Assembly (NCBI GenBank): GCA_001275005.1
Contig: JWZX01002399.1
Location: 1 to 39,707, forward strand
DNA from: Chrysochromulina tobinii
Lineage: Eukaryota
Reading direction: 5' to 3'
Length of the DNA stretch: 39,707 bases
Positions 8,848 to 36,763 of this stretch are shown here, one piece after another. Within the stretch, counting starts at the first letter, position 1, and every line of letters starts with the position of its first letter. Position numbers and translations under genes: made by a program. The notes under the pieces are model-generated. The model did no database searches. It was not told the DNA's origin and saw nothing but the letters and a program-made list of their open reading frames with translations.

Positions 8848-11800
8848 TTACGCACCACCCTGGCCCTTGTAGAGGGTCGCAAGCAACGCTGCCCCCAGCT
8901 CCAGGCTGGAGTCGAGCGTGGCCTCGCCTGCAGTCATCTCGGCTGCAGAGCTACGGACCGCTCGCCCATCCTTCTTGTCGTCGTCGTCCTCGTCATTTTG
9001 ATCACCGACCGTGCCACTTCTGCCATCGCCGGCACACCCCTTGTCGCCCTCGTCGTAGTCGACTTCTACGACGACGCCACCAGCACCGCTGCTGTCAGCG
9101 CCGCCGCTCTCAGCGCCGCCGCTGCCGCCGCCGTCACACTTGTCTTCTACGACCACCGCGGCCTCGCCCGCCGCCTCGCCCTCCTCTGCCGCTGCCTCCA
9201 CCGCCTTCTCCATCACTTCATCGGCGGCCTCGACCACGGCCGTTACATCGACCGTTACAAAGTCCTCCGCAACCTCTTCCATGGCATCCTCCACCGCTGC
9301 CTTGGATGCCTCTTCCGCCGCGGCGCTCTCAACTGCCTCCTCCGCCTCCATCGCTACCGCCTCCACCTCCATCGCTGCCTCCTCTACCTCTATTGCAGCC
9401 TCCTCCTCCTCCATCACAGCCATTGCACGTCCCACTGCAAGCCCCGCCGAGTGCGTAGCCGTCGAGGCCGCGGCAACGGCTGGGGGGTTGGCCAAGGATT
9501 GCAGCATGGCCATCATAGGGCTGTGTCTGCCGTTGCCATCAAGTTCAGCGCCCGCCGCGGCACCAAAGGCAAGAGCGGACCCGAAGCCAGAAGCACTGCA
9601 GTTGCCGCCGCTGCCGCTGCCGCCGCTGCCGCCGCTGCCGCCGCTGCCGCCGCTGCCGCCGCTGCCGCCGCTGCCGCCGATGCCGCCGCTGCTGCCGCCG
9701 CAGCCAGTGCCGATGGAGATGCTGCAGTCGCCAAGAGCGGGGCCGTGGGTGGCAGTGGCGCCAAAAGCGGGCACGTGCATGCGAGCGCCGAGAGCACCTC
9801 CCATATTTGGAAGTGTCGTACTGCCGCGGAACGTGGGCCGACAAGCCGAGCGCCCCGCCGAGGCGCCCCCCGCGATGTCGTCATTCGTCTCGTCTTCGAG
9901 GTCACCAAAGGGGTACGGGCGGCGCCGTCCGGCGATGATGGTGTGGCCTTGGCCGCCGATGCCGCCACCGCCGCTGCCAAGGCTGCTGCCACCGCCGTCG
10001 CAGGCGCCGTCGTAGGCGCCATAGCCTCCATCGCCGCCGAGTCTGTTGTGGGTAGCCGAAGGCGTGTGGCGCTGCGCTTGGGGTGCTCGGGACGGCATCA
10101 CTAGAGCCCCAGCGCCGCCGTCCGCCCCGGCGCCGACGACGGCGTTCGCAGCCGTCTCGATGGCCAAAGCAGCAGCGGCGGTAGCGGCGGCAGCAGCGGC
10201 GGTAGCGGTGGTAGTGGCGGCAGTGGCGGCAGTGGCATTGGCCGCTGCGGTCACGGCCTGAGCACTCGCCTGAGGGCGGAAAGGAGGGGAGATGAGGCGG
10301 AGATGAGGCGGAGATGAGATGAGACGAGGGAGGCATCAGAGGCAATCAGAGGCAATCAGAGGCAATCAGAGGCTCTCGCCTGAGCGGCGGCGGCGGCGGC
10401 GGCGGCCTGACGGGCCACTTCGGCGCGCAGCCGCCCTTGCAGCTCGAGAAGCACAGTGCGCAGCGACGCCTCGTCGAGCGAGCTGCGCGCATACCTGATA
10501 AAGAGCGCAATCCGAGGTCATCAGAGATGACGAGTGCAATCATCAGAGCGCAATCCGAGGTCATCAGAGATGAAGAGCGCAATCCGAGGTCATCAGAGAT
10601 GAAGAGCGCAATCAGAGGTCATCAGAGATGAAGAGCGCAATCCGAGGTCATCAGAGAGGCCATCCGAAGCACTCAGAAGCCCTCGAAGGCACTCCGAGGC
10701 ACTCAGAAGCCCTCAGAGGCAAACAGCGGCACTCAGAGACCATCCGGACGCCATCCGACGCCATAGGAGGAAATCAGAGGCAATCAGCGGCACACCAGAT
10801 CAGACGCTCCGCCACTAGAGCGTAATCAGAGGCAATCAAAGGCATACCAGATCAGACGCTCCGCCACTAGAGCATACGCCTCCATTGAGCGCGTGCGAGC
10901 AGAGGGCCGCTCCACCTGCCATCAGAGGACACTCGGGGGATCATCAGTGGCAATCAGTGCCGAGGGCCGCTCCACCGGACCAATTAGTGGCACTCGGTGG
11001 CACTCAGTGGCACTCAGCGATTATCAGTGCCAATCAGTGCCACTCAGAGGCACACTCTATACCGGATCAAAATCGACAGCGGCGGAGAGATCAGCGGCGC
11101 GTCGGCACACGGACTGCGGCAGACCCGCGAGGCTCGCGAGTACGTCCGTCATGTACGCACCTGATGAAGGAGGCAATCAGTGGCTCATTAGTACTCATCA
11201 GAGCTCATCAGGCTGGCGAGTACGTCCGTCGTGTACGCACGACGACTCGTCACGCCATCGCACACGATGTGGGGGAAGCGCTGCGTGAAGCCGCCGCCGC
11301 CGCCGCCTCCGCCTCCGTTGCCCCCTCCTCCACCGCCACCAGTGCCGCCTCCGCCTCCGCCTCCGCTTCCGCCTCCGCCTCCGCCTCCGCCTCCGCCGCC
11401 GCCTCCGCCACGCTCGTCGTCGGAGGTTGCGAGCTTGAGAAGGCGCACCTGATAAAGGTTATCCGTAGCTGTGGGTGATCCTCGAGGGCATTCAATGACC
11501 AACGAAGGCAATCAATCAGCATCGAGGTGCATGCAAGACGTGTGCTTGAGGAGGGTGCACTCAATATAAGCATCGAGGTGCATGCAAGACGTGTGCTTGA
11601 GGAGGGCGCACGTTGCTCGGGTAGAGGTTTTTGAGGTTCGCTAGCCAGAGGTAGTGCGTCGCAAAGAGCGTGAACGTCGAAGGGGCGAGTGCGAGCTGCT
11701 CGGCCACGGCGAAGCTGCGAGGAAGGGAGCAATCAGACGTCAACAGAGGTCATCAGAGATGCACTAAGTGTGGTCATCAGCCCACCTGAGGGAGGCGATG

Positions 11801-14800
11801 AAGGGAGCAATCAGCCGTCATCAGAGGTCATCAGAGATGCGATGAGTGGTCATCAACTCACCTGAGGGAGGCGCCATCGGCATTGGAGGTGCCACGCCCG
11901 AGCTCGTCGACGAGCACGAGAGCTGGCCCGCCGAGATTGCGCAAGATATACGTGGTCTCGCGCATCTCGCATGCAAACGTCGAGCCATGCGCCTCAAGCG
12001 CGTCCGCAGCTCCAATGCGCGTGAAGACACGCTGTAGCAGGCCACGTAAACAGAGGCGATCAGAGACGATCAGAGGCGATCAGAGGACATCAGAAGTCAT
12101 CAAATTCAATCAATGGTCATCAGCCCTCGCCTGCAGCAGGGGCACCGTGGCCGCGTCGGCGGGCACGTGGCAGCCGATGTGGGCCAGTAGCACAACCAGA
12201 GCGGTCTGGCGCAGGTACGTCGACTTTCCCGCCATGTTGGGCCCCGTGATGATCTGCCGGGTCGCAATTAGGCAATTAGGCAATTAGGCAATTGGGCAAT
12301 TGGGCCATTAGGCCATTAGGCCATTAGGCCATTAGGCCATTAGCGATCTCAGGCGTGGCTGTCACCTGCAAGTTGGTCGCGTGCGTGATGGCGACGTCGT
12401 TCGGCGTGAGAGGCTGGCCGGGCTCCGCAAACCGCTCGAGGAGCGGGTGACGGCAGCGCTTGAGCACCAAAGGGGCGGCGTGTGCGATCTTGGGACGGCA
12501 GAACGGGCCGTTGCCTCCCCCCTTGTGCACAAAGACGGCGAAGGCGAGCATCACGTCGACGAGAGCGACTGACTCGCCTGGGGAAAGGGGCGCCCACACG
12601 CGCTAAGAGCCCATCATCAAACGCACTCACGCACTCAGCAGGCCATCAGAGGCCATCAGAGGCCATCAGAGGCCATCAGAGCTCATCAGGGGCCATCAGA
12701 GGCCAACAGAGGCCATCTGGGGCCATCTGGGGCCATCAGAGGCAATCAAGCGCGCTCAGAGCGATGCATACAAGCACGTACCCAGGCGGAAGACTAGGTG
12801 GAGCGAGGATCGTATCTCGCCGAGAAGCAATCAAGACAATCAGAGCGATGCATGCAAGCACGTACCCAGGCGGAAGACTAGGTGGAGCGAGGATCGTATC
12901 TCGCCGAGAAGCGCCGAGATCCGCGCCTCCGTCGAGAGGAGAATCTGCTGAATCATCTCTTGTGCGCGCGCCGAGAGCTGCGACGAGATCGCAGCGAGGT
13001 TGCAACGAGATTTCAAGAGGTCCCTCAGCCGCACTCAAGCGAACAACCAGGCGCATCATCATCAGGGGCGTTCATCAGCCGCAATCAATCTCGCCTGCAC
13101 GAGCTGATCCGTTGAGCAAGCCACCGTCTTCTTTGCTTGGGAAGCGATCTTGACGAAGCCCGCACGCTCGACCGTCTCGCGCTGCGCCACTGGCAGCGTG
13201 AGATGGTAGCCCCGCCGCTCAGTCCACACCAGCTTGAGGTCACTCAGCCCAAACTGCTCCGCATACCTGTGGGGAAGTGGTAGGGCGTCGTGGTGAGCAC
13301 CCGCATCACACCAGCTTGAGGTCACTCAGCCCCAATTGCTCCGCGTACCTGTGGGGAAGTGGTAGGGCGTCGTGGTGAGCACTCGCATGCTCAGGCCGCA
13401 CTTGCAAGCTCAGGCCGCACTGCTCAGCGTACGTGTCGCGTAGGTGCTCCATCTCGGTCGTCGAGTCGGTCAGCGTCTCTCGCGCCACGTCAATGAACGA
13501 GCAAACCTACGAGCGTCGTGGCGGGCACTTGAGCCATCAGTGATCATCAGTGAAAATCAGCGGCCATCCGTGGCCATCAGCGGCCATCAGCGGGACACTC
13601 ACCTTCGAGCGCACGGCGAAGAGGCACTCAAGCATCCGTTGGCTCGTCTGCTTGCGGAAGATGGCCTCGTCGTCAATGATGGCGTGGATGCGCGTGCAGA
13701 GCTCGTCGATCTCGTCGGAGGCGAGATTGCCCACGATGGCGCGCAGCAGCTGTGGAGAAGGGGGCAGGGAGGGCAGGGCGGATAGGGCAGGTAGGGCAGG
13801 GCAGGTAGAGGGCAGGGCAGGTAGAGGGCAGGGCAGGAATGGGGCAGGGCATGTAGAGGTCGGGGTTAGGAGGGCAGGTGGAGGTACTTCCGAGATCTGT
13901 CCGAGATTCCGTCCGAGATCGCACCTCGTTCGTGGGCGGCGCCTCCCCACTCGAGGTCATCAGGGAGGTCATCAGTGAGGTCATCAGGGAGGCCATCAGG
14001 GAGATCGCACCTCGTTCGTGGGCGGCGCCTCCCCACTCGAGGTGAGCGCGGCGGCGAGGCGCGGCGCCGCATGCAACGCCGTCTTGAGCTGGAGGACCGC
14101 GGAGATGCCAGCCTTGGCACGCGCGCAGCCGGTCGAGGTGGGGTTCGTCATGAAGAACTTGAGGAGCCGATCCGAGTCCGCAAAGGCGGGAAGCACCTGA
14201 TGAGGGATGCAATCAGAGGTCCTCAGAGGTCCTCAGAGGTCCTCAGAGGCAATCAGAGCTCATCAGAGGCCATCACCTTATGGGCGTCGACGAGGAGCTC
14301 GTCGCGCGCGAGCAGCTCGGAGACGCAATCGAGGCGCGCCGAGATCGTGTCCAGATCTGTCGAGGGCTGCAGCAACAGCGTCCGCAGGTATCGGCTGCCC
14401 GCGGCGGTCTTGCACTGCGCACACCGGGGTAGGCGCCGTGGTGAGCACTTGTATGCTCAGGGATATGGTCTGAGCCCCTCTCAGAGGCACTCAGAGGCAC
14501 TCAGAGGCATTCGGTGGGGCATGCCATCCTCCGATCCGCAGTGTCACCTGGTTGAGCGCGCCGAAGAGAGATGCCTTCGGATCGCCGGTGCGCAGGTTGC
14601 GAAGAAGCTCGAGGTTGGCGACGGTCGCCGGGTCGAGGAGCATCACGCCCTCGACGCTCCGGTACCTGTGGAAGAGAGGGCGCCGCGATGAGCACTCGCA
14701 TGCTTCCGACGCATGCAAAGGGCACGTGGGGAGGGTTGAGATCCGATGGCACGCAGAGAGGCACTCGAAGGGACACTCAGAGGGTGGACGGAGTGCGCAC

Positions 14801-15297
14801 TTGATCCGAAGGGTGCCCTTGACGAAGCTCGCGCCGTCGGACTGCTCGACGGCGTCGACGAGCGCGGCAAGGGCCGAGAGCGCCAGGTATTTGGACTTGA
14901 CGTCCGTCTCGAGCGCCTGCACGTGCGAGCGGTGCGAATAGTGTCGCACGTACCCGAGGCCCTTGATCTCGTTCCAGTTGCGACGGGGCACCTGGTCGCA
15001 GCGCGCGGCCGGGAACTCGGCCTCGGCGACGCGCGCGAGCACGCTCTGGGCGGACGAGGGTGGGAAGAGGATCTGGCGCGGGTTGTGCGACGCGAGCACC
15101 GACAGCGTGCGCGAGTACGCCGCGTCGTCGCAGAAGGAGCACAGCTCGATCGAGAAGTCCGAGAGCCGCAGGCACGCGAGGCCGACCTCGTAGGCGCGGT
15201 TCTCGCAGAGCGCGACAACCGAATCGAGCTCCGGCTCCTGAGCCGCGGCGCGCTCGTCCGCGCGAGCGAAGGGCTGCACGGCGTCGAAGCCGACCAT
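8848..15297 (-). CDS. MSH4: MutS homolog 4 (meiotic), 17 exons: 15297-14801, 14665-14548, 14414-14277, 14196-14011, 13749-13603, 13506-13433, 13266-13095, 12977-12866, 12577-12366, 12253-12131, 12031-11862, 11714-11612, 11448-11241, 11160-11063, 10915-10848, 10494-10380, 10257-8848
   Basis: Hand splicing keeps frame. The N-terminal [17 protein letters not shown] resembles plant MSH4 (VAGLIENRAKEVGMA) and there is no mismatch-binding domain I. Other motifs: [29 protein letters not shown], Walker [31 protein letters not shown], Walker [13 protein letters not shown], and [16 protein letters not shown]. The start codon (15297 or 15408) and the last exon are less certain. Confidence 0.88.
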
Positions 15298-18953: not shown

Positions 18954-18984
18954 GACTTGACTTGACTTGACTTGACTTGACTTG
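18954..18984. repeat. (GACTT)6 pentanucleotide repeat
   Basis: gacttgacttgacttgacttgacttgacttg, between two divergent genes; same unit as 5978-6046. Confidence 0.9.
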
Positions 18985-19078: not shown

Positions 19079-20440
19079 ATGCATCGTCGCGAGGTGGTGC
19101 TTGCGGCCGTGAAGCAGGACGGCAGGGCGCTCAAATACGCTTCTGCCAAGCTGAAGGCCGATCGCGAGGTGGTGCTTGCAGCCGTGAAGCCGAACGGCTA
19201 TGCGCTCAAATACGCTTCTGCCAAGCTGCAGGCCGATCGCGACGTGGTGCTTGCAGCCGTGAAGCCGAACGGCTGGGCGCTCGAATACGCTTCTGTCGAG
19301 CTGCAGGCCGATCGCGACGTGGTGCTTTCGGCCATGAAGCAGGACGTTGTGGCGCTCAAATACGCTTCTGTCGAGCTGAAGGCCGATCGCGACGTGGTGC
19401 TTGCAGCCGTGAAGCAGGCCGGCTGGGCGCTCGATTACGCTTCTGCCAAGCTCAAGGCCGATCGCGAGGTGGTGCTTGCAGCCGTGAAGCAGTACGGCTG
19501 GGCGCTCAAATACGCTTCTGTCGAGCTGCAGGCCGATCGTGAGGTGGTGCTTGCGGCCGTGCAGCAGGACGGCAGGGCGCTCGCATACGCTTCTGTGCTC
19601 GCATACGCTTCTGTCGAGCTGCAGGCCGATCGCGAGATCAGAGAGGCTGCCTCGAAGGCGATCAGAGAGGCTGCCTCGAAGCGCAAAGAAGCGGTCCTGT
19701 TAGCCGAGCTCAAGGCCGTCAAGGGCGCTGACACGCAGGCGAAGACGCAGCCAACCGGCTCTGCACTAGCTTCCTCCTCTGAGGCCGCCGACGCCTCAGC
19801 ACTAGTCCTTGGAGAGGGAGAGCGTCGCCTACTCGCAGACGAGGCGGGCGGCCACTCGTCCCAAATTAGGCAACTCGCAGACGCGGTCCACGTGGAGGTT
19901 AGCATGCAAGATGTGGAGGGAACCGTTTTGGACGGCGATGGCGAGGTGGCTTTCGAGGGCGAAACGTCCCTCGCCGAGCGAAACGTCAGCCTGCAGGCAG
20001 AGGCGGTCGATGTTGAGAGTTTTCCCTTCCGCCGCATCCGCAAGGCTCCATCCCGACTTGACCCAAGCGTGGGCACGCCGAAGAGGAAAGGTTTGAAGCG
20101 CACTTTGGAGCCTCGGACGTCGGCCCGCCGCGCAGCGGCGCCAACCATCAAGCAAGAAGACTTTCTCAACGGCGACATCAACTGTCCATCGTGCGGATGT
20201 GGCGTCCCCGTGAGCGAGCAAGGGTGCAACATGATCACCTGCCGCTCGCCTCATCATACTGGGGGCTCCTGGTTCACCTTTTGCTACCATTGTCGTAAAG
20301 AGTGCCCGGGCGCCCTTCCGTGCCTGAAAAAATGCCCCGAACGGAACGACAAGGCGAGCCGGCTCCTGGCGCGAGAGCTTCTTAACAAGGCCGCAGAGCG
20401 AAACCCGATCATCATTGACGACACCGAGGAGGACGAATAG
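19079..20440 (+). CDS. DUF4116-type 25-aa repeat protein with a C-terminal RBR Rcat/RING2-like zinc domain
   Basis: About 7 tandem 75-bp units encode ADREVVLAAVKQxGxALxYASxxL. The C-terminal CPSCGCGVPVSEQGCNMITC....FCYHC resembles Rcat (CPxC..GCNHMxC...FCWxC). Intronless. Confidence 0.8.
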   Translation: MHRREVVLAAVKQDGRALKYASAKLKADREVVLAAVKPNGYALKYASAKLQADRDVVLAAVKPNGWALEYASVELQADRDVVLSAMKQDVVALKYASVELKADRDVVLAAVKQAGWALDYASAKLKADREVVLAAVKQYGWALKYASVELQADREVVLAAVQQDGRALAYASVLAYASVELQADREIREAASKAIREAASKRKEAVLLAELKAVKGADTQAKTQPTGSALASSSEAADASALVLGEGERRLLADEAGGHSSQIRQLADAVHVEVSMQDVEGTVLDGDGEVAFEGETSLAERNVSLQAEAVDVESFPFRRIRKAPSRLDPSVGTPKRKGLKRTLEPRTSARRAAAPTIKQEDFLNGDINCPSCGCGVPVSEQGCNMITCRSPHHTGGSWFTFCYHCRKECPGALPCLKKCPERNDKASRLLARELLNKAAERNPIIIDDTEEDE

Positions 20441-20996: not shown

Positions 20997-22103
20997 ATGG
21001 GCTGCGCCTCTTCTACCCCCGTTGTCATCGCAGACCCAGCGAAGCCGGAGGAGCTCAAGCCTATTGCCGCCGAGGAGGCTCCAGTGCTCAGGTCGGCGCC
21101 GCCGACCGCCAACGTAATTGTGCCCCCGGCCGAGGTAGTGGCGACCGAGGAGGAAAAGCCGGTGGCAAAGCCGTCGACCGATGTAGTGGCGGCCGCGCCC
21201 GCGCCCGTCGCTGCTGGCGTCCTCGCGGATGCCCGCAGTGCCGGTCTAGATACGAGCAAGGCTGTGCCCGCATGGCTGGCCAACCTCGACCTGCCCGCGC
21301 CCACGGCCGCAGCACTGCGCGCGGCGGCGGAGCCCGTTGCCGAGGTGGTGCCCGAGGTGGTTGCGCCTGCCCTAGCGCCCGCGGTAGCTCCAGCGCCCGA
21401 GGTAGCTCCAGCGCCCGCGATCTCCGCGGAGGCGCTCGCATCTTACAAGGAGGCGTTCTCCGTCTTCGACAAGGACGGCAGTGGCACCGTCTCCACGAGC
21501 GAGCTGGGCGAAATGATGAGTGCGCTCGGCCAGAACCTGAGCGCGGAGGAGCTCGACGCGATCGTGGTCGAGGTCGATGCCAACCGCTCCGGCGAGATCG
21601 ACTTTGACGAATTCTGCGCGTGCATGCAGAAGGCGAAGGAGGGGGGCGCGACGACGCCCAAGCTCGCGGTGATAGTGGAGGAGAGCAGTTTGCTCTCCGG
21701 GCTGCGAAGCTTTCTCGGTCGACTCCTCTTCGGAGCGCCCATGGAGGAGAGTGCGGCGGCCGAGGCGGCAGCGGCGGCGGCGGCCAAGGCGGCGGCCGAC
21801 CGCCAGCTTGCTGCTAACCTCGCTGCTAACCTCGACGCTGAACGAGTGTACAAGACGCAGGAGGCGGCGGCGACCGAAGCGGCGGCGGCCGAGGCGGCGG
21901 CGGCGGCGGTGAAGGCGGCGGCCGAGGCGGCGGCGGCGGCCGAGATCATGGCGACCGAGCTAATGGCGGCGGCGCAGAAGGCGGCGGCAGCAGAGACGAG
22001 GAAGAACCGTTACAAGCTTGTGCGGTGCAAATGCTGCACCTTCTCGCACTTTGCACTTTGCGACGCCTGCCCTCGATGCCACGACGCAGCTCCTAGGGGC
22101 TAA
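20997..22103 (+). CDS. Calmodulin-like EF-hand pair protein with a dual-acylation N-terminus and a C-terminal NZF/RanBP2-like zinc finger
   Basis: ATG 20997 gives MGCASS. EF pair YKEAFSVFDKDGSGTVSTSEL and IVVEVDANRSGEIDFDEF. C-terminal RCKCCTFSHFALCDACPRC. Confidence 0.8.
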   Translation: MGCASSTPVVIADPAKPEELKPIAAEEAPVLRSAPPTANVIVPPAEVVATEEEKPVAKPSTDVVAAAPAPVAAGVLADARSAGLDTSKAVPAWLANLDLPAPTAAALRAAAEPVAEVVPEVVAPALAPAVAPAPEVAPAPAISAEALASYKEAFSVFDKDGSGTVSTSELGEMMSALGQNLSAEELDAIVVEVDANRSGEIDFDEFCACMQKAKEGGATTPKLAVIVEESSLLSGLRSFLGRLLFGAPMEESAAAEAAAAAAAKAAADRQLAANLAANLDAERVYKTQEAAATEAAAAEAAAAAVKAAAEAAAAAEIMATELMAAAQKAAAAETRKNRYKLVRCKCCTFSHFALCDACPRCHDAAPRG

Positions 22104-22111
22104 TTGCCTCT

Positions 22112-22190
22112 GTCATCAGAGGTCATCAGAGGTCATCAGAAGTCATCAGAGGTCATCAGAGGTCATCAGAGGTCATCAGAGGTCATCAGA
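22112..22190. repeat. (GTCATCAGAG)n array flanked by duplicated coding sequence
   Basis: About 8 units. Flanking direct repeat gacgcctgccctcgatgccacgacgca at 22062-22088 and 22189-22215. Confidence 0.9.
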
Positions 22191-23155
22191 CGCCTGCCCT
22201 CGATGCCACGACGCATGCCACGACGCAGCTCCACTCGTCCGCGCGGCCATCGAGTGACGCGGCTGACAATCCCATGCAATCACGTGCTCAGTCCGTGGGG
22301 AGGGACGATGAGCTACCCAGCTCTTTGTTTGGAGGGCTGTCCGAAAACTTCGACCTCAGCATATCGCCCCCGCCTAGTCCTACAGTACAAGCGAATGTAC
22401 TACCCTCTGGACCACGTGTAGTCCCCGACCGTGTGGCTGTCGCTGTGCGGGCTGCAGTGTACCGCTTTGAGCAAGAGCGTTTCCTGGTGTTTGTTGAAGC
22501 GGCTGGGCGACCAGGATGAGCTCGAGGTCAGTCCGTACGTTACGTTTAAATAATATAATTACGTAAACCGAACGAAACGCGCTACACGGGGACGTCTGTT
22601 CGCGCGTACGCCCCGTATCGCGCATATAACCCAAATTCCCCCACCGGCACCGCATCCGCAATTCAGGGGCGGCGTCCTTGTCCTGCCTGACAACTATCTC
22701 TCCGTCTCTACTAAGTATCGCGTCGCGCATAACCCAACCGGACTCGTCGCGGCGGCGCGCGTCGGTCGGGCGTGTCGATTAAAACGGCGGACGGTCGGAT
22801 TTGACTTGGGTTGTCGCGATCGTGGGCATAAACAACAAATAGCTCCAAGTGCGGGCTCGACCGACGGGACCTATGACCCCTATACACGCTCGCATGCTAA
22901 TTGCTCAGCCGTCATAGCTAATACCCGGCTCGGTCCCCGTTCTTCTGTGTTCCCGAGCCGGGAGCGCAGATCCCAGATCAAATCCCCGAACCACTACCGC
23001 GACGGGACCGAGACCTCAGAGGGCAGCCCCTCGCGATAATCTCGCGATTCTGGCCATTCTAGATTCCCGTATCGCCTCCATGGTCCATGCGAAACGTAGA
23101 GTGCACAAACTGCACGGAGCGCCTAAGATGATTCTAATCATCAGCTATCAGGTCA

Positions 23156-26100
23156 TCACGTGAAGACGTCTGTGACTACCAGCCGGAGGCGGTTGCGGAA
23201 GGCGAGCGTTCCCCACACGAGCACCTCCCGCGCTGCCTCGAAGCCCGCTATGTACTCGTCGTACCTGATGAGGGAGGCAATCGGAGGTCATCAGAGGTCA
23301 TCAGAGGTCATTGGAGGTCATCCTCGGCCAAAAAGGCGTCGTACCGGGCGAGCGCGCGCTCGACCTCCCGCGAGCGAAGCGTGTGCAAAGAATACTTGGG
23401 GTGTTCGTGCCCGTTCCGGTGCTCATCCCAATTCGTAACCGACGTCTCGATGGCGAGCCCTTCCCAGCCGGGCAGGCGCAGAGGCGGCGCCACGCTCGAG
23501 GTGAACACGAGGGGTGTGCCTGCATGCAACGCTTCGTACCTGATGAGGGAGGCAATCGGAGGTCATCAGAGGTCGTTGGAGGTCATCAGTGTGCCTGCAT
23601 GCAACGCCTCATACATGTTACGGCGCTCGGGCGTGTCGCCACGTGGCTCGACGGCGAACCGCGACGACGCGAGCAATCTCGTCGCGTTCTCGGCGTCGTA
23701 CTGGGCGCCCATGTGGTTGCTCAACTCGAGCGTCTCCCCTGTGCGCCACACGATCAGGGGTCATCAGAGGTCATCAGCGGTCATCAGTGGTCATCAGTGC
23801 GCCACACGATAAGCGGTCATCAGTGGTCATCCCAGGCGATCCGATCGCAATCCGATGGCAATCCGCGGCAGTCACCTGGGCGATCATACTCCCTGATTAC
23901 ACGGCAATCCGATCGCAATCCGATGGCAATCCGCGGCAGTCACCTGGGCGTAGCAGTTCCTTGAGCCACCCTCGGCCGCAGCACAGGCTGCCAACGAAGC
24001 CAAAGTCGCGCGCGCGCTCCGCCTGTCGCCTCGGGCGCGCGAGCGTCGTGCCGGGCACATAGTACGGGATGTGAACCTCTCGGTGCCAGTCACGCACCGC
24101 GCCTGAGGAGGGACGCACTCAAGAGGTCAACAAAGGCCATCAAGAGGCAATCAGAGGTCATCAGAACGTACCCGGCGGCGGCTCGGCGTCCGTCTCGAGG
24201 CACACGTAACGAATCTTAGGATGACGAAGGCAATCAGAGGTCATCAGAACGTACCCGGCGGCGGCTCGGCGTCCGTCTCGAGGCACACGTAACGAATCTT
24301 AGGATGACGCCAGAGCGTCGTGTACACGTCCTCGCCCGCGCCGATCGACCACGCCTGCTCGCCTATGTAAGGGCACTTGTGACGAGTCATCAGGTGCTTC
24401 TCGGGGTGTGTGTCAAAGTAAGGCCCCACCGATCGCATTGCCGCAAGCAACTTGCGCTCGAATCGGGCGGTGCACCTGATGAGGGAGGCCATCATGATGA
24501 TGAGTAAGGAAGTCATGATCTCAATCAGCGACCAAAAAGGCGATCGGTACAAATCCGACGCAATCAAGCGCCATCAAGCGCCATCAAGCGCCATCAAGCG
24601 CCATCAAGCGCCATCAAGCGCCATCCGACGCGTGCTCACCGACGCAATCAAGCGCCATCAAGCGCCATCAGCGCGTGCTCACAGATGCAATCAAGCGCCA
24701 TCAAGCGCCATCAGCGCGTGCTCACCGGAGGCATGAGCGTAGCTTGTGCCGCTTCGCATTCCACGACCAGCCGTGTGCCCAATGCCGGTTGAGGCACGCG
24801 GGCAGCACGAAAAAGTCCGCAAGCGCCGGGTCGGTGGTGGCCTCGAATGCGGCACGCAGATTCGACTCGACGTGCAGCTCCCACCTAATGAAGGGAGGCA
24901 ATCATGATGAGGGAGGCAATCCTGATGAGGGAGGCAATCATGAGCTCCCACCTGATGAAGTTGTGGCAATCATGATGAGGGAGGCGATCATGAGCCTCAA
25001 TCAGTGGCAGCTCTCACTCGAAGTTGTTGACGCCGCCGCCATCATTCGGGTGGCAGTTGGTCATGCCGAGCTCCCCAAGCTCGTACACGTACATGCGCAG
25101 CGTCCGCGTTGACGAAGCCGAGCCGCCGACACGCGCCGTGTTGGGCGTGCGCTCGTCCTCGGGTGCGACCGGCGCCGTCGTGAGCGCGAGGCGCGCCGGC
25201 CTGGGCGCCGGCAGCGCGGCCGACGGCTGGAACTCGCCGCCGACATCGCTCACGTACCCGCCCACGACGAGGCCGCTGCCGCCGCCCACGTAGCCGCCGA
25301 CGATGGATCCGCCGCCGGGGGCTCCGATGATCACATCGAGTGCTCCGAATCGGTCCTCAGCGAGACACGCGACATCCCTCACCTCGGACACGAGGGCCGC
25401 GTGCACTGCGAGCCATCCGAGAGCGATTAGAGAGCAATTAGAGTGCAATTAGAGAGCAATTATAGAGCGATTAGAGAGCGATTAGAGGTCCATTAGTGAG
25501 CCATTAGTGAGTGACCCGAGAGCAATCCGAGAGCAATCCAAGGCCATCAGAGGTCATCAGCATGCAATCACCTGCACGCATGCACGACTCATCTTCGAGG
25601 CCTTGCGTCCTCGAGTAATTGGCCGTTGAGGCGCCCTTGGGGTGTGTGAAGAGGCCAGCGTTCACGACGACGCACGCCGGGCTCGCGAGGAAGCGGCGCG
25701 CGGCGAATTTGCACCTGGGGATGAGGGGGAGGAAGAGGGGGGAGAGGAGGGGGGAGAGGAGGGAGGGGGGAGGAGGGAGGGAGGGGGGAGGGGGGAGGAG
25801 GGAGGAGGGGGGGGGCGAGGGGGGTGAGAGGCATCCGAGGGCATCAGAAGGCATTCGCGCATGCATGCGCACCAACAGGCGTTCACATCAACAGGCATTC
25901 ACATCAACAGGCATGCATGCGCACCAGGTCACGTCGACGCCCCAGTCAGTCCGCGCTTCGGGCCGGTAGAGCGACGAGAACACCTGTGGGGAAGGCGGAG
26001 GGCGCCCTGGTGAGCACACGTGCATGCCCACGTGGCCGGTAGAGAGCACTTGCATGCATACCTCGATCGCCACCCGTAGCTGGAGCAACGGAAGCATGAG

Positions 26101-27217
26101 TTCCACAAAGTCGGTCGCGCGCGTGCGGCAGCGCGGATGCGGCTTGAGCAAGTCCCAAATCGAGCCGATGATCGCGGGCTGCGCAATCAGCGCTCCGTGT
26201 CGCTGCGCCTCGTGCAAAAAGTGGGCCACGTAGCGCATCGGCGGGATGATGATGTCCTCATCGATCGACCAAATATGGGAGAACTCGAGCGCCCACGCCT
26301 TGCCATATGCGGACAGCGCGTTCGCGATGAAGCGCGACTTGACCTTCTCAGGATAGCTCACGTGGAAGCGCGAGCATCGCTTGTACCATGGCTGCTGAGC
26401 GTACCTGTGGGGGGGTAGTGGGCCGGGGGGGGGGCGCCGTGGTGAGCACTTACATGCACGCGTGTGGCTGGTACCACGGCTGCTCGCGTACCAGCTGTGG
26501 CTCGCGTCGTAGTGGGCGTAGAAGAAGGAGGCGTTACTCAGCCGCGAGATGGTTTCACACGTGGCCTGCACGTTGCTCGCCTGCCCGGTGGTCATCAGTG
26601 GTCATCAGTGGTCCTCAGCGGTCATCAGTGGTCATCAGTGGTCATCAGTGGTCATCAGCGGTCATCAGTGGTCATCAGTGGCCTGCACGTTGCTCGCCTG
26701 CCCGGTGGCCATCGCACACGATCAGTGGCCCTCAGCGGTCATGAGTGGTCTTCAGAGGTCATCAGTGGTCATCAGTGGTCATCAGTGGTCATCAGTGGTC
26801 ATCAGTGGTCATCAGTGGTCTTCAGAGGTCATCAGTGGTCATCAACGGTCCTCAGTGGTCCTCAGAGGTCCTCAGTGGTTCTCAGCGGTCATCAGCAGTC
26901 ATCAGTAGTCATCAGCCGCCTGCACGCAGCTCGCCTGCTTCTGGCCCACGACCATGAAGATGAGTACATTCATCAAAGGTCATCAGTGGTCATCAGTAGT
27001 CATCAGCTCGCCTGCTTCTGGCCCACGACCATGAAGATGAGTACATGGAAGAACGGCACCGCCTCCGGCATCGGATCCATCGGAGACGCACCTGTGGGGA
27101 AGCGCGAGCGCCGTGGTGAGCACGTGCATGCTGGGCGAGCACTCGGTTCGCTTCGTCGGATCCATCGGAGACGCACTAAATGCGAGCACTTGCTCCGAGC
27201 CCGACGACGCCGACGGG

Positions 27218-27254
<37 letters not shown>

Positions 27255-28080
27255 CGGTGCCGAGGCCTGTCCAGTTACAGCAGACCGTCGGAGGGCGCGA
27301 CAGCGCCTTGGCGGTGGTGACGATGCCGGGCACGTGGAGCGGCACGTAGACGCCCGAGCACTGCGCGCCGCCGTGGGCAGTCCTTGAGAGGCTCTGGGCA
27401 CTGCCTAATATGGAAGCGCGGTCTCCCAGCGGCTTGAGCCACGAGTACGTGCATGTCTCCGTCGACCCGTACGAGACAGGGCCGGTGCGCATGTAGCAGC
27501 GCGCGTCGCAGTTCCACGTCACCGAGGTGCACAGCTCGTCCTGAGCGCAGTGCTCGCTGCACGCGTCGTGGTCGACCCGGCTTGGCAGTGGGAACTTGCC
27601 GAGCAGTTCGCTGCCGCCGACGAGGTTACGCGGCTCCCAGCCTGATTGAGTGCGGTGCGTCGCGCGGGACGCCGTCCGCGCCTCCTCGACCTCCTCTACC
27701 GTCTTTCCCTCGGCGAGCTCGGCGCACGGGCTGCAGGCCGAGCATGTACCCCACTCGCACTTCTCCTTCCAGTCGTGGTACCGAATCGCACCCACCCTCG
27801 CGACGATCTTTTGACCGCACCAGCTCTGGCAGTGGGGCTTCGAACCAGCGCTGGGGTCATTCCACTCCGCGTAGAGCATCATCTTTGTGGTCGGCCCCAA
27901 CCGTTGCTTCGTCTTCAGGTCCGAGAAGAAGTTGACGTGCTGCTCCGTCATATGACGCCCTGCGCCGGCACCGGCGCCGACGACCTCGTGCGTGGTCGTT
28001 GGGCCGCCGGCAGGCGCACTCTGGGCGAGCAGCACGAGCAAGAGCGCGAGCAGTACGACACTATAGAAGATTCTCCGCAT
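23156..28080 (-). CDS. Secretory-pathway multidomain glycosyltransferase: signal/anchor, Cys-rich and PAN/Apple-like modules, DUF707-like GT-A domain, exostosin/GT47 domain; 13 exons: 28080-27177, 27091-27012, 26580-26492, 26404-26062, 25983-25925, 25714-25572, 25405-25018, 24884-24726, 24475-24255, 24102-23944, 23738-23615, 23539-23345, 23264-23156
   Basis: MRRIFYSVVLLALLLVLLAQS; DACSEHCAQDELCTSVTWNCDARCYMR (PAN-like); FSHIWSIDEDI..IAQPAI..DFVELMLPLL..WGVDVTW (DUF707-like, DxD); LRMYVYEL..TTDPALADFFVLPA..FGFVGS..SSRFAVEPRGDTPERRNMYEALHAGTPLV (GT47). All 12 hand-placed junctions keep frame; one has a GC donor. Confidence 0.78.
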
Positions 28081-30712: not shown

Positions 30713-33700
30713 ATGTCGACGCCGAGTAGTCTTCTAACGCCCGAGGAGATGGTGGAGGCGACTGGGCTGCTGCGTGCCATGCGCAACTTCCGCACGGCGG
30801 CCAGCAAGCCCATGCTCGCGTACCCGAAACCGCTGGACGCGCCTCACGGGCTGCCCTTCAGTGATGAGAATGGCACGGTGGACGGAGGAGGCATCGGCAC
30901 TCGCGCCGGCTTCAAATGCGGTTGGGAGTTCGGCATCGCCCAGTGCGCGGTGCTCTTTCTGCCGCGGGGACTGCCCTTGGATGGCGAGTGGGCCACTGCG
31001 GTAGACTGGGCCAACCGCGCCATCAACGCAAACCTCACGAAACTTATGCCCGGCCGCGGCCGTAACAGCTCCTTCAATCCTCTACGCTACGTCGCGTTCA
31101 ACCCAGCAGTCATCGATGAGCACAACGTGCTCATCCGTGCGGCGCCAGACAAGCTTTCCATTAACATGGATCGAGAGTGGTCGCCTGGCCTCGAGTACTT
31201 TGTGCACCTGCATGACGGTCAGCTCAAGGCCGCCTTCCTCGGCAGGTATGATTGCCGCCGATGGCCTCGGATGGCCGCGGATTGCGCCGCATTGCACAAA
31301 TGGTTGAGGTGCTACCACCGATTGCCGCAAGCACATATGATTGAGGTGCCACTGATCGCCACAAACAAAATGATGATCGCCTCAAACACATATGATTGTG
31401 GTACTGATCGCCATGACCGGCCGTCCACGGCAGTGACCCACGCGGCATCTGGCTCGACCGTTACACTCTGCTCGCCGTCTACAATCGTGCGCACACTCCG
31501 GACGTGCTCGGGTTCCGATTCGGCAAGGTGAGGGTGCTCATGTACGCACGCAACCTATCGCAAGGCGTTACCGGTACGGAGGTGCGCTTGCGACTTGCCG
31601 GCGCTCGCAATTGGGAGAAGAATTGGAGCCCATTTGAATGCCCGATGCATGCGGAGTGCGCGGGAATGCTCTACCTGAGCTACGCGCTCAGCCCCGAGCA
31701 CGTCGTGATCTCGTGCGAGCTCGCCTCGGGCAACTGCCAACGCGCATACAATACCTCGTCTGCGGCCGTGTGGGAAGGCGTCAACGACCGGTGAGAGCTT
31801 GGGCGGCCTCTGATGGCCTCTGATGGCCTCTGATGGCCTCTGATGACCATTGACGTCCTCTGATGACATCAGATGACCTCTGATGGCCTCACTGAAGGCC
31901 TCAACTGTTTGCATCTTTGGTTGGCTCCCTCATAAGGATATTTGATCACCCGCGCCTCTCGACACCACCGGTGCTCGTGCGAGATCGAGATCGAGATCGA
32001 GATCGAGATCGAGATCGAGATCGAGATCAGGCTCGAGGCCGTTACCTCGCGATTGGCCATTACCGAAGCGGGCATGCCTTGTATTCGCACTTCTGGTACG
32101 AGATGCAGGTAAGTGCCCTACGCATGACCCACTGATTACTTGCTTCATCAGGTGAGTGCCCTACGCATGGCCAATGATGGCTTGCTTCATCAGGTGAGTG
32201 CCCTACGCATGGCCCACTGATGGCATGCATTCATCGAGTTCCCTCCTCATCGTCCCCTATGGCCTATGAGTGCATACCCATCTGGGATTGCATGCAGGCG
32301 GAGCCGCCCTTTGCGATCCTCCGCACGTCCCGACCGTTTCGATTCTTCTCGGGCGGGCGCACAATGGAACGCCTGCCGCCCTGGCCCAACATGAACCTGA
32401 GCGCCCGAGACGGCGCCCATGACGACGCCCGAGACGGCGCCCGAGATGGCGCCCGAGATCACGGCCGAGGTCATAGTCTTCCCAAAGAGAGCGCCGGCTA
32501 CTCCACGACCATGGGCTATCACAAGGAGCAGTGCGTCTGATTGCGCTCGATTGCGCTCGATTGCGTCCCTATTTCAAGGAGCAGTGCGTCTGATTGCGTC
32601 TGATTGCGTCTGATTGCGTCTGATTGCGTCTGATTGCGCTCGATTGCGTCCCTATTTCAAGGAGCAGTGCGTCTTGGGCTCGTTGAGCCTGATTGCGGCT
32701 GATTGTGGTCGATTGCGTCCGATTGCGAATCTGTCTGCGTCGTTGTCTCGTCCTAATTTGGATGCGTCCGACGCCCTCCCCTTCAGGTACGTTTCGGGTC
32801 TTTACCTTTCCTCAGACCGTCAACGGCTCGTCTTGAGCTACGGAGTGGGCGACAGAGGGGCGATGCGCACCGCCGTGAGCCTCGCGCCAGACTGCCTACG
32901 TGTGATTGCCCGACGTAATCAGACGCAATCAGACGTAATCACGCCGTGAGCCTCGCGCCAGACTGCCTTCGTGTGATTACGTCTGAGTGCGCCGCAGTGA
33001 GCCTTGAGCCAGCGATCGACAGACTGATTGCGTCTGAGAGCGTCTGAGTGCACCTCTGAGTGCACCTCTGAGTGCACCTCTGATTGCCTCCCTCATCAGG
33101 TGAGGGTCGATCAAGCGCTCGCGATGCTCAACGACGCGGGCGACGCGACGCAGCTCTACCGGTCGTGCCTCGCGACACGCCCCAGGGGCAGCGCATACTG
33201 CGACGAGGTCGGCTGCGACCGGGGACAGTCCTCCTCCGACGGCCCGACGTTAGTTCTGTGCGGAAGCTGCCCTGTGTGATTGCCGCGAATCGCCTCCGAT
33301 CGCCCCCTAGTTGCCTCCCTCATCACTGTGATTGCCGCGAATCGCCTCCGATCGCCCCCTAATTGCCTCCCTCATCACTGTGATTGCCGCGAATCGCCTC
33401 CGATCGCCCCCTAATTGCCTCCCTCATCACCGAGGGCAGTCCTCCGCCGACGGACCGACGGGAGTCCTGTGCGGCGGGGAGGTGCCCTCATTCTATCCCT
33501 CATGCCAACTGTGACGGCGTCGGATTGCATGGCTGACGGCGTCGGATTGCATGGCTGATGGCGTCGGATTGCATGGCTGACGGCGTCGGATTGCATGGCT
33601 GACGGCGTCGGATTGCATGGCTGACGGCGTCGGAATGCATGGCTGATGGCGTCGGAATGCATGGCTGATGGCGTCGCGGATGGGCTCCCTCATCAGGTGC

Positions 33701-33930
33701 GGCACGACGGCCTCGAAGTTCTCTGCTGCGATGGCCACTAATTGCCACCGAGTGTGTCCTTCATCAGGTGCGGCACGATGGCCCCCAAGTACCCGTACAA
33801 TTACCACGGCGACCGGGCCGTCGAGATGGCCGCGATGCTCGAGGAGCGCCGGGAGCTCAAGCACCCGTCGGAGGTGGCGCGCAGCCGTCTGGACGGCACG
33901 ATCGCACGATTGGAAGGGCTTGCTATGTAA
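30713..33930 (+). CDS. Five-bladed beta-propeller carbohydrate-active enzyme (beta-1,2-mannosyltransferase GT91/GH130-like); 7 exons: 30713-31245, 31434-31790, 31937-32108, 32298-32530, 32787-32874, 33100-33257, 33768-33930
   Basis: Spliced motifs AFNPAVI, G|SDPRG (EDPR-like), WEKNWSPF, YLSYALSPEHVV, PRLSTP, YSHFWY..AEPPFAILRTSRPF, QYVSGL and LVLSYGVGD. Junctions keep frame. Confidence 0.68.
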
Positions 33931-34018
33931 TCTCGCTATGGAAGGCTCGATCGACCGATTGGAAGGGCTTGCCATGTGATCTCGCTATGGAAGGCTCGAT
34001 CGACCGATTGGAAGGGCT
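33907..34018. repeat. 49-bp tandem repeat spanning the stop codon of the beta-propeller gene (about 2.3 copies)
   Basis: cgattggaagggct starts at 33907, 33956 and 34005. Confidence 0.9.
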
Positions 34019-34326
34019 GCATATAACTGCCAAAAAAGGAAAGCGGTGCGGCGCGCGCGCGCGGAGTTGTGGAAGGACTCAATTTGGATTTGAAGGGACG
34101 GTGGGCGCCTGTTGCAGGCGCATGTCGCTGAGCGTCCAGTGCGTCCAAAGGAGGAACAACGGAATCCTTCGGCGGATATCGCCATCATGCAATACAAGCT
34201 CCGACCGTTTCGAAATAGTATTTTGTGTTTTCAGAGAACCTATTCGATTACCTGCTGTTGAATATAACCATGACAGTTGACACTCCTGCATACTGTATGT
34301 TCAGACGAGAGGATCAGCAATCACCA

Positions 34327-34590
34327 GGCTATTTATGGTATGGTAGAGATCCCCGCCGTCGGGCACGTAAAGGCTCTCCGACAGCGGGGCACGCACAAAT
34401 GCACATCTCCCCACCCCGAGTTCAGCGCCGCCCGCATCATGCTTTATGGTATGGTAGAGATCCCCGCCGTCGGGCACGTAAAGGCTCTCCGACAGCGGCA
34501 CGCACATCTCCCCACCCCCAGGTCAGCGCCGCCCGCATCAGGCTTTATGGTATGGTAGAGCGTCGGGCACGTAAGCTCGCCGACAGCGGC
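34327..34590. repeat. About 100-111-bp imperfect tandem repeat (about 2.4 copies) between convergent genes
   Basis: tttatggtatggtagag...cgtcgggcacgtaa...ccgacagcgg starts at 34332, 34443 and 34544. Confidence 0.88.
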
Positions 34591-34639
34591 TGTACTTAGG
34601 CGAGTCTGTGCTCTTCGAGCCAATCGAGGGTCGCGACAT

Positions 34640-36763
34640 CTAGCCGCGCATCGCGACTCCAAGGACGTGCTGCTTGAGCTGTATCCAGTCGTCCGCCGTC
34701 CGCTGGTGGCTGTCCCGCAGCTGGGGGTTGGCGCCGGCGAGCAGCAGCTGCTGGACGATGCGCGTTTCGCCTGCGAAGCATGCGACCATGAGTGCCGTAA
34801 TACCTAGGCTTTGCTGCGCGTTGACGTTCGCTCGTGCAGCGAGGAGCACCTGATGAAGGATGCAATCAAGAGGTGTCATCAGAGATCATCAGAGGTCATC
34901 AGGTGTCATTGAGCATCGAGAAGAACCTCCACACCATCAGAGGTCATCACAGGCAAGGTATCCTCGAGCAGCGAGGAGCACCTCCACAACTGCACTGCGC
35001 CCCGCAGCAGCTGCGAACATGAGCATCGTGCGACCCGTGGAATCTCTGCCGTCCACATCCCCACCTGCCCAGATCCAGTCGCGGACCCGAACCGCATTGC
35101 CCACTTGGGCAGCCTCGATCAGCTCGTTGGGTATGGCGGTCGCGACACGTGACGCGCCATAGGGATCCGTGTCAAGCTGCCACACGCTTGTCATGCCCAG
35201 CATCCGCCGCACGCTTTCCATGTTAGGCGACTGCGGCATGGAAGCTGCGGACAGGCCCATATTAGGCAGGCGGCTCGGCCCATCATCCCTGATTTGGGAC
35301 ACGTCGGGCACGTCCATATCAAGCATGCCCACGAGAGTCTGAAAGTCATCCCTCATTTGGGACGCGTCGGGCACGCCCATATCAGGGACGCCCACGAGAG
35401 TCTGAAAGTCATCCCTCATTTGGGACGCGTCGGGCACGCCCATATCAGGGACGCCCACGAGAGTCTGAAAGTCATCCCTCATTTGCGCGTCGGGCACGCC
35501 CATATTAGGGACGCCCACGAGAGTCCTGAAGTGGTGCTCCCTAATATGGGAGAAGTGGCGCTCGAGCCGCACCTCCGCCGCGAGAGGGATCGGAGATCTG
35601 GACGAGATCGGAGTGCTGGACGAGATCGGACGAGATCGGACGAGATCGGTTGAGATCGTATGCGATCGGACGCGATCGGACGCGATCGGACGAGATCGGA
35701 TGAGATCGGGCGAGATCGGACTGCTGGACGAGAGTCCGGACGAGTGACCGGACAAAGGAACCGCTCCGGACGAGGCGGGGCTGGAAGAGGGGGACGCGAG
35801 GCTCTTGACACGCACACCCTGGATGCTTCGTTCGGGATGCGCACTTGCCATTTTAGGCAACTCATCCGCCGAAATCACCTTGAGGCGCCCGGCGTGCACT
35901 TGCATCAGTTGAGCGTGCCGATGGCGCACCTGTGGAGGGTCGGGCGCCGCAGTGAGCACTTGCAAGGGGCGCCGGAGTCGGGCACTTGCATGCAGGAGTT
36001 GAGCGTGACAATGACTCATAAGGGCGCCGGAGTCGGGCACTTGCATGCAGGAGTTGAGCGTGACAATGACTCGTACCGAGTTCTCCGTGCGCCCAGGCAG
36101 AATCTCCGCGATCTTGCGCCATTGCTTGCCGAGGCGGGCAGCCGCCTCAAGGAGAAGGGCGTCCTCCCGAGGCATGAACGAGAAGCGCGCACTCGGAACC
36201 CCCGGCGCCTCCTCCTCCTTGACCTTCGCCTTCGCCTTCTTTGCCTTCTCCTCAGTCTTCTTTTTCAACGTCATCTCCGCTGCCTCCTGCTCCTTGAGCG
36301 CCTTGAGGTCGAACTCGCCGGCTGCGGGCGCCTTGGACATGACCACCGACGCGGGGTCCGGCGACTGGAGCACCTGCTTGAAGCCTTCCGCCGCCTCGCG
36401 ACAGATCGACTTGGCCGATCCGCTACTTCCCGTGTCGCCCTTGCGCTTGAAGGACCCCGGGTTGGAGGACCCGGGGCTGGCAAGGGACCCGGGGCTGGCT
36501 AGACCCAGGCACTCCTCTTCCATTGGCGTGCACCTTTGGTTCATCAATCCTCGCCCGGTTGCGGCCGCCTCCTCGCGCGCGGCCGAGGCCGCCACCCATG
36601 CCGCCGCCTCCGCCTCTAGTTCCAGCTGCTCGGCCAACACCGCGGCCGCACGCGCCGTCGCGATCACTTCCGCCTTCATGCTCGCATCCATGCTAGCATC
36701 CATGCTCGCATTCAGCGTGGCCTGGAGCTGCTCGCGGCCGGTGGGCGTGCCCGGCTCGGCCAT
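34640..36763 (-). CDS. Myb/SANT + ankyrin-repeat protein; exons 36763-36077, 35929-34982, 34849-34640
   Basis: Myb: FMPREDALLLEAAARLGKQWRKIAEILPGRTENS|VRHRHAQL. Ankyrins: LIEAAQVGN..DVDGRDSTGRTMLMFAAAAGRSAVVE|VLLAARANVNAQQSLGITALMVACFAGETRIVQQLLLAGANP. Internal ~63-bp repeats (FQTLVGVPDMGVPDASQMRDD) at about 35294-35530. Confidence 0.8.

What the first reader, a model, noticed from the sequence alone, without database searches (positions are those of the whole stretch)
11135..36076. Many introns begin with a copy of the downstream exon's first 8-31 nt: a signature of intron birth by duplication plus insertion
Seen (intron start vs next exon start). 27176 GTGCGTCTCCGATGGATCCGA is identical to 27091 over 21 nt. 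23614 GTATGAGGCGTTGCATGCAGGCACAC vs 23539 GTACGAAGCGTTGCATGCAGGCACAC. 11240 GTGCGTACACGACGGACGTACTCGCCAGCCT vs 11160 GTGCGTACATGACGGACGTACTCGCGAGCCT. 34981 GTGCTCCTCGCTGCTCGAG vs 34849 GTGCTCCTCGCTGCACGAG. 11611 GTGCGCCCTCCTCAAGC vs 11448 GTGCGCCTTCTCAAGC. Similar pairs occur at 13432/13266, 26491/26404, 23344/23264 and 36076/35929. Between the two copies lies a stereotyped acceptor cassette, often with a CTGAT microsatellite. Inference: a splice-acceptor cassette inserts with a flanking duplication, and the upstream copy's GT becomes the donor, restoring the reading frame. Established comparators are introner elements (short target-site duplications) and the tandem-duplication model of intron gain. 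Long, variable duplications with microsatellite filler would be a distinct route.
Basis: partly seen in the sequence, partly recalled or inferred. Interest (0 to 1): 0.85.

Follow-up and report, generated by a model that had tools for sequence, protein, structure and literature searches.

The report
Introns born with long target duplications
In this alga about a quarter of the introns examined begin with a copy of the start of the next exon, likely because the tail of an existing intron was pasted into coding DNA with a long, variable duplication that supplied the missing splice site, which would be a little-described way for new introns to arise.

Summary
Ten of 43 hand-modelled introns begin with an 8-31 nt (one gapped, about 40 nt) copy of the next exon, against 5 of 930 mismatched pairs. 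All ten end in one of two stereotyped acceptor cassettes. An independent assembly holds all 6 that it spans. RNA contig lengths fit exact removal of three; joints were not seen directly. MSH4 relatives read through these positions. In another clade an insert at the same codon as intron 11611 begins with its own exon's copy; it is in frame in 4 of 30 proteins, probably present in 2 more, and absent from 24. That argues for independent gain with duplication. Best reading (0.5): repair of a staggered break copies another intron's 3' end, and the upstream duplicate supplies the GT. A retrotransposon or HUH enzyme is the main rival (0.3). It works like donor-recruiting Introners, but lacks their fixed 4-8 nt duplication and end-to-end family. 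The scan reported this footprint before in the same genome (e1-2577349). New variant of a known kind; interest 0.7.

The parts
11161..11240 (-). MSH4 intron; first 31 nt copy the next exon (11160-11130); cassette A acceptor; insert starts CTGATGA and ends TCATCAG
   Evidence: relatives read through in 10 proteins; identical in L003
11449..11611 (-). MSH4 intron; first 17 nt copy the next exon; same codon at which another clade gained its own duplicated insert
13267..13432 (-). MSH4 intron; first 24 nt copy the next exon; cassette B; holds a second acceptor-plus-exon copy (13348-13307) that L004 and several strain proteins lack
   Evidence: P0002 aligns gap-free across the junction; 11 relatives read through
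23265..23344 (-). Intron of the 12-intron gene; 8 nt exact copy; cassette A
   Evidence: RNA contig length fits removal (X12 record 22)
23540..23614 (-). Intron; 26 nt copy; cassette A; insert starts CTGATGA and ends TCATCAG
   Evidence: RNA contig length fits removal (X12 record 22)
24885..25017 (-).
26405..26491 (-). Intron; 25 nt gapped copy; cassette B
   Evidence: RNA contig length fits removal (X12 record 23)
27092..27176 (-). Intron; 21 nt identical copy; cassette B
   Evidence: open frame only, RNA not resolved
34850..34981 (-). Intron in the Myb/ankyrin gene; 19 nt copy; cassette A
35930..36076 (-). Intron in the Myb domain; gapped copy that ends in a stretch shared with the start of cassette B (microhomology)
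33697..33767 (+). Intron-sized unit inside intron 33258-33767: directly follows an acceptor, starts with a copy of the next exon and ends in cassette A
   Evidence: splicing not tested
22062..22232 (.). About 30 nt direct repeat flanking a CT...AG insert of CTGATGACCT units; the duplicate does not start with a donor; insert supplies the stop codon of the + strand EF-hand ORF; candidate failed intron
   Evidence: identical in L003; RNA contigs start inside the array
8850..15297 (-). Host gene: MSH4-type MutS homologue, 16 introns (3' end approximate)
23156..28080 (-). Host gene with 12 introns, 5 of them duplicate-type; resembles a glycosyltransferase by recall only, no Pfam match in six single exons
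34640..36763 (-). Host gene: Myb domain plus ankyrin repeats

Best explanation
Ten of 43 modelled introns start with a copy of the next exon and end in a shared acceptor cassette, and they are likely recently gained introns, made when repair of a staggered break in coding DNA copied in the 3' end of another intron and duplicated the target. Steps. (1, inferred) Two nicks 5-30 nt apart leave both ends holding a target that begins with a donor-like GTRNG. (2, inferred) One end anneals by those few bases to the start of the exon behind another intron (19 of 21 cassette introns are followed by GT) and is extended backwards through that intron's AG, pyrimidine tract and branch-point repeats, from DNA or pre-mRNA. 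(3, inferred) Synthesis lets go in the repeats and joins the other end at 1-9 nt of microhomology. (4, shown) The product reads exon | copy + repeats + cassette AG | exon. (5, shown by open frames, homologues and RNA contig lengths) The copy's GT and the cassette's AG are used, and the mRNA is restored exactly. Events whose duplicate does not start with a donor would be removed by selection (inferred). Each new intron again ends AG|GT and would be a template for the next, so no transposase is needed (inferred).
For: Excess over chance. 10 of 21 cassette introns vs 0 of 22 others carry a long copy (p 0.0002; among GT/GC-starting exons 10 of 19 vs 0 of 12, p 0.004; cassette classes were defined after seeing the data). 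9 of 10 targets start GTRNG vs 128 of 746 coding GTs. 11 of 17 introns with non-AG exon end and GT exon start are phase 2, vs 3 of 22 AG-ended (p 0.002), as expected if the donor came from coding sequence. Positions absent in relatives: 11 read through 13432, 10 through 11240; P0052 and P0056 lie on 111 kb and 13.8 kb contigs. In another clade an insert beginning with its own exon's first five codons (VRTLM) is in frame in 4 of 30 proteins, 2 more break at that point, 24 lack it, and 23 of those 24 run into another unspliced intron, so they are genomic; identity upstream is 157-160 of 163. Copy length varies and only the AG end is exact. The same introns hold many junction-spanning tandem copies (7 donor-spanning) that differ in number between assemblies, showing a general duplication habit. 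One insert with a non-donor duplicate appears unspliced (22062-22232).
Against: Two A-type inserts have 7 bp inverted ends, a transposon-like trait, though they fold no better than shuffles. Cassette A is too uniform (mean 14 of last 20 nt identical) to exclude a true mobile family. P0026 breaks at the same codon as intron 13432 and P0044 right after VRLL at 11611, so some positions are shared or gained in parallel. RNA support is indirect (contig lengths, 3 introns); X11 record 15 could not be reconciled exactly, so 27176 is unconfirmed by RNA. Most presence/absence evidence is from translated ORFs of one gene, not DNA. Gene models were made by hand knowing the duplicates. The failed-intron control is a single case.
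Confidence: 0.5

Rival explanations
1. A short non-autonomous element is moved by an enzyme that fixes one end and leaves the other fuzzy: a non-LTR reverse transcriptase priming at a nick on intron RNA, or an HUH transposase of Replitron/Helitron type. The outcome (intron gain with donor from the duplicate) is the same.
For: Replitron-1 inserts with one precise end at a dinucleotide, a fuzzy other end and variable duplications, and a putative Replitron locus was found in Chrysochromulina tobinii (PMC10288648). Cassette A is very uniform and two inserts run CTGATGA...TCATCAG. The unspliced insert at 22 kb also has CT...AG ends. Earlier finding e1-2577349 speaks of a mobile family (not checked here).
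Against: At least two unrelated cassettes plus a third insert type in another clade; insert lengths 49-146 nt with unlike 5' ends; no significant hairpin; the repeats lie on the fuzzy side, not as a tail at the exact end; other Replitron families show no duplications.
Confidence: 0.3
2. Plain tandem duplication of coding DNA came first; the acceptor and repeats were acquired later by gene conversion from other introns or by repeat growth.
For: Tandem copies of 12-55 nt are common at these junctions; a weaker mirror signal exists at intron 3' ends (4 of 22 score 7 or more vs 0.9% background).
Against: 9 of 10 upstream exons lack AG, so the intermediate could not be spliced; even the youngest case (21 nt identical) has a complete cassette.
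Confidence: 0.1
3. Old introns had their 5' part overwritten by a template switch from an intron-less allele or cDNA (abortive intron loss or transfer), so no new position is created.
For: Copies start exactly at the junction; 14 of 20 mismatches are at third codon positions; P0026 and P0044 may share positions.
Against: The third-position excess lies wholly in +3 to +7 (8 of 8); beyond it 6 of 12, as neutral decay predicts. Most relatives lack the positions. In the second clade every filled allele has the copy and the outgroup P0056/P0057 is empty.
Confidence: 0.07
4. Chance similarity of donor-like motifs or assembly error.
For: Exon starts and donors share GTRNG; tandem copy numbers differ between assemblies.
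Against: 0 of 100,000 matched shuffles; copies differ by substitutions; same junctions in L003 and L004; strain proteins read through the same intron.
Confidence: 0.02

Closest known systems
Donor-recruiting Introners of Symbiodinium, Polarella glacialis (classes 4/5, 6/8/10) and Aureococcus (10.1101/2020.10.14.339549, parts 1-2 read; 10.1101/2022.06.06.494994, passages)
   Same: Element brings the 3' splice site; the 5' end of the target duplication is the donor; exons after the intron start with a donor-like motif; phase follows the recruited nucleotides.
   Different: Their duplications are fixed at 4 or 8 nt per class, often with terminal inverted repeats; here 8-31 nt or more and variable, 5' ends unlike, interior made of branch-point-like repeats.
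Introner family of a Chrysochromulina sp. metagenome bin (10.1101/2022.06.06.494994, Fig. 2C legend)
   Same: Haptophyte, target duplication, no terminal inverted repeats, one splice site recruited.
   Different: 4 bp duplication; carries the 5' site and recruits the 3' site, the opposite polarity. Its supplement could not be read and may list other families.
Daphnia introns gained by staggered double-strand-break repair (PMC4202315, passages)
   Same: Direct repeat of adjacent exon bases at the opposite end of a new intron; later internal repeats; presence/absence among relatives.
   Different: Repeats 4-12 bp, fillers AT-rich and mostly of unknown source; here longer repeats and a stereotyped, multi-copy acceptor.
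Intron gain by tandem genomic duplication of AGGT (PMC3443670, passages)
   Same: Intron 5' end equals the next exon's start.
   Different: Needs the intron 3' end to equal the upstream exon end with AG; not so in 9 of 10.
Replitron-1 of Chlamydomonas reinhardtii (PMC10288648, section 9 read)
   Same: One exact end at a dinucleotide target, one fuzzy end, variable duplication.
   Different: 0.9-3.6 kb elements with direct terminal repeats and a transposase; not reported there to make introns.

Membership tests
Donor-recruiting Introner | Locus-specific match between intron start and next exon start | tested here: met
   10 of 43 vs 5 of 930
Donor-recruiting Introner | Fixed duplication length per family | tested here: not met
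   8, 11, 17, 19, 26, 31 nt for cassette A; 21, 24, 25, about 40 for B
Donor-recruiting Introner | Multi-copy similarity reaching both intron ends | tested here: inconclusive
   3' ends alike (A 14.1, B 11.0, others 7.9 of last 20 nt); 5' ends of inserts unlike; only 21 copies seen
Donor-recruiting Introner | Terminal inverted repeats | tested here: inconclusive
   7 bp in two A inserts, z -0.5 and -1.7; none seen in two B inserts
Donor-recruiting Introner | Position absent in relatives | tested here: met
   MSH4 only, from translated ORFs; two possible shared positions
Donor-recruiting Introner | Autonomous partner element | not testable with these tools
   no genome held
AGGT tandem duplication | Intron 3' end copies the upstream exon end including AG | tested here: not met
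   1 of 10 upstream exons ends AG
Daphnia-type break-repair introns | Direct repeat of adjacent exon at the opposite intron end | tested here: met
   longer than the 4-12 bp reported
Daphnia-type break-repair introns | Unique AT-rich filler without other copies | tested here: not met
   cassettes recur in the window and draw very high depth from other loci
Replitron-1-like HUH insertion | One exact end at a dinucleotide, fuzzy other end, variable duplication | tested here: met
   geometry only
Replitron-1-like HUH insertion | Direct terminal repeats and Rep transposase | not tested
   no full element or genome available
Non-LTR target-primed insertion | Simple-repeat or poly(A) tail at the end that abuts the start of the target (recalled feature) | tested here: not met
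   that end is the acceptor AG; repeats lie toward the other end

The most novel reading that the evidence does not exclude
Haptophyte introns breed without a transposase: break repair copies the 3' end of an existing intron into donor-like coding sites, duplicating up to 30 nt, and every product is a template for the next. This route would have built most introns of several lineages independently, including parallel gains at one codon of MSH4.
Probability: 0.35. Interest if true: 0.88.

Novelty: new variant of a known kind. Interest (0 to 1): 0.7.

Why it matters
Where new spliceosomal introns come from is an old open question; most Introner families lack a known mechanism (about 72% uncategorised, PMC12130899), and pipelines that need end-to-end similarity would miss introns whose 5' end is a copy of the host gene. 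Here the length and decay of the copy date each intron, filled and empty alleles exist among close relatives, and the template should be traceable, so the route can be tested directly. It also predicts that each spliced junction recreates a donor, which would need masking (re-splicing control by the exon junction complex is described in PMC8184009; listing and abstract start only).

Tried and rejected
No whole genome, so no genome-wide count. One search was swamped by repeats from other loci: its joints table showed no intron-sized splice joint among the 15 rows kept; only piece lengths were usable. A second, narrower read-laying gave no result, so splice joints remain unseen. Cassette scans of viral contigs (2 and 1 loci) and prokaryote genomes (5 loci) gave no usable intron set; L001 and L002 look like chance, L008 and L011 end in cassette-like sequence at contig ends and were not used. 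The metagenome scan gave 3 loci, all close strains sharing intron positions, so no presence/absence was seen within this species. The idea that copies came from diverged alleles (third-position excess) was dropped after splitting by distance from the donor. Hairpin folding was not significant for the clean inserts. Differences in tandem copy number between assemblies may be assembly collapse and were not counted as polymorphism. Pfam did not name the 12-intron gene from single exons. Left out of the count of 43: a possible intron in the repeat array near 35.6-35.75 kb and one near 39.1-39.3 kb. Intron 11611 was left out of the read-through tally because of a low-complexity insert; it was read by eye. 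Literature searches showed no paper describing long variable exon-start copies in haptophyte introns; the library lacks most subscription papers, and bioRxiv supplements were closed. PMC11782384 (abstract only) reports 4-30 bp direct repeats near intron borders in general.
Full report
Setting. The window is eukaryotic, about 62% G+C, rich in 10-mer arrays. I did not establish the organism. An earlier scan note calls the genome a haptophyte alga, and the published Chrysochromulina tobin genome has 63.4% G+C (PMC4580454, passages). No whole genome was held.

Observation. The nine pairs are real and lie on the minus strand. I modelled 43 introns in 7 genes by hand (MSH4 16, EF-hand gene 5, 12-intron gene 12, methyltransferase 1, Myb/ankyrin 2, gene at 30.7-33.9 kb 6, cation exchanger 1); every spliced frame is open (domain names and from source names of relatives). 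Among mismatched pairs with GT/GC-starting exons, 5 of 930 do; none of 100,000 shuffles reached 10. A weaker mirror similarity between intron end and upstream exon end was also significant in the first 41 introns.

Are the junctions right? P0002 (77% identical over exon 1) aligns without gaps over MSH4 junctions 0-6, including 13432; more distant relatives align across junctions 7-14. RNA-library contigs follow the downstream copy with no other letters from the first base that tells the copies apart. X12 record 22 has 330 further letters; the spliced model without introns 23614 and 23344 predicts 327 plus 3 shared; record 23 has 99, predicted 95 plus 4. This is inference from lengths; joints were not displayed, and X11 record 15 (towards 27176) could not be matched exactly. 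L003, the same strain in another assembly, has identical junctions for all 6 duplicate introns it spans; L004 has 13432 too.

Anatomy. Each such intron reads: copy of target, then 49-146 nt, then an acceptor. Two acceptor types recur, A (ending like TGATTGCCTCCCTCATCAG, 12 introns) and B (GTGCTCACC core, ending CACAG, 9 introns); classes were set after seeing the data. All 10 long copies are in these 21 introns, none in the other 22; 19 of 21 are followed by GT against 7 of 22. Nine of 10 targets start GTRNG against 128 of 746 coding GTs. Nine of 10 upstream exons do not end AG. Across all introns, 19 of 21 without an AG exon end are followed by GT/GC, and 11 of 17 with GT are phase 2 against 3 of 22 AG-ended ones: nearly every intron seems to have taken one splice site from coding sequence. 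The repeat units carry CTRAY, a branch-point-like motif (recalled consensus), 205 times on the sense strand and 9 on the antisense. Seven introns also hold tandem copies spanning their donor, others spanning their acceptor, and copy numbers differ between assemblies. At 22062-22232 a similar insert sits between about 30 nt repeats that do not start with a donor; it supplies the stop codon of an ORF, and RNA contigs begin inside its array as unspliced sequence would. It is a single case.

Are they new? Among 40 MSH4 relatives examined, 11 read through position 13432 and 10 through 11240, and 6-20 through each other scored position; one close relative (P0190, 105 of 112 identical) has an in-frame insert at intron 3. 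Several are genomic ORFs with introns of their own elsewhere or lie on long contigs. Against this, P0026 breaks at the codon of 13432 and P0044 just after VRLL at 11611: shared or parallel. The strongest evidence is a separate clade (P0059 180 of 321 identical to the window protein). Four of its 30 proteins carry a 23-residue insert at the codon of intron 11611 that starts with VRTLM, the first five residues of their own next exon, and ends in Q; two more break there; 24 lack it, and 23 of these run into another unspliced intron downstream. Upstream identity between filled and empty forms is 157-160 of 163, and the outgroup P0056/P0057 is empty. The 30 proteins fall in six clusters and are not independent genomes. 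Each lineage's copy matches its own exon, so the events were independent. This is protein-level evidence; the DNA was not seen.

Mechanism. Gain by insertion with a long duplication is well supported (about 0.85-0.9 in total). The agent is open. I favour templated repair at a staggered break (0.5): it explains the exact AG end through annealing of the target's GT motif to the exon start behind a template intron, the fuzzy other end, the several cassette types, and the many other local duplications. An enzyme-driven element (0.3) fits the uniform cassette A and the Replitron-1 geometry (PMC10288648). A third-position excess among mismatches (14 of 20) first suggested copying from diverged alleles, but it lies in +3 to +7 only. 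Polymerase-theta papers were seen as listings only.

Comparison. It works like donor-recruiting Introners but fails their fixed duplication length; it is not the AGGT model; it resembles Daphnia break-repair introns but with longer repeats and a reused filler. The 2025 survey's main text does not mention haptophytes. A haptophyte genome paper names intron gain and loss in the group as an open question (PMC8379373, passage). My searches found no description of this pattern. The scan itself noted it before in this genome, with more than a hundred related introns (e1-2577349); I did not check that count. What this window adds: frequency, the link to two cassettes, absence in relatives, and a parallel filled/empty case.

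Verdict. Real, spliced as described where testable, likely recent intron gain by a long-duplication route. New variant of a known kind; interest 0.7.

Noticed in passing
window 13628-13647, 14330-14342, 14833-14877, 19986-20005: Contigs of DNA run X10 differ from the window in tight clusters, many changing amino acids in MSH4; RNA run X11 shows both forms at 14330-14342. Divergent alleles or a paralogue.
   Followed up: partly
window 13348, 33697, about 24950: Acceptors followed directly by a donor-like exon copy and a second acceptor: possible zero-length exons or recursive splice sites.
   Followed up: no
window 33222-33260 and 33430-33470: A donor-spanning exon copy that differs from the exon mostly at synonymous sites; which copy is used is unknown.
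   Followed up: no
window 13094, 12130, 10379, 27011: Four of 43 modelled introns use GC donors, all GCGAG.
   Followed up: partly
window 11291-11409: A 6-mer array puts about 40 mostly glycine residues into the MSH4 ATPase region; relatives lack them.
   Followed up: partly
window 19087-19635: Coding-like 75 nt tandem array of about 7 copies on the + strand; family not looked up.
   Followed up: no
window 759-1673, 1770-2565, 3300-5850, 6250-6880: Long stretches without visible introns lie beside genes with 12-16 introns; intron density is very uneven.
   Followed up: no
protein P0190: In this 94% identical relative the exon after MSH4 intron 3 starts with V and the intron reads VQR against exon VLR, a hint that older introns lose the copy over time.
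   Followed up: partly
L011:4495-4554 and L008:1531-1561: Cassette B and A sequences at contig ends in a viral and a bacterial record; probably algal DNA in those records.
   Followed up: no
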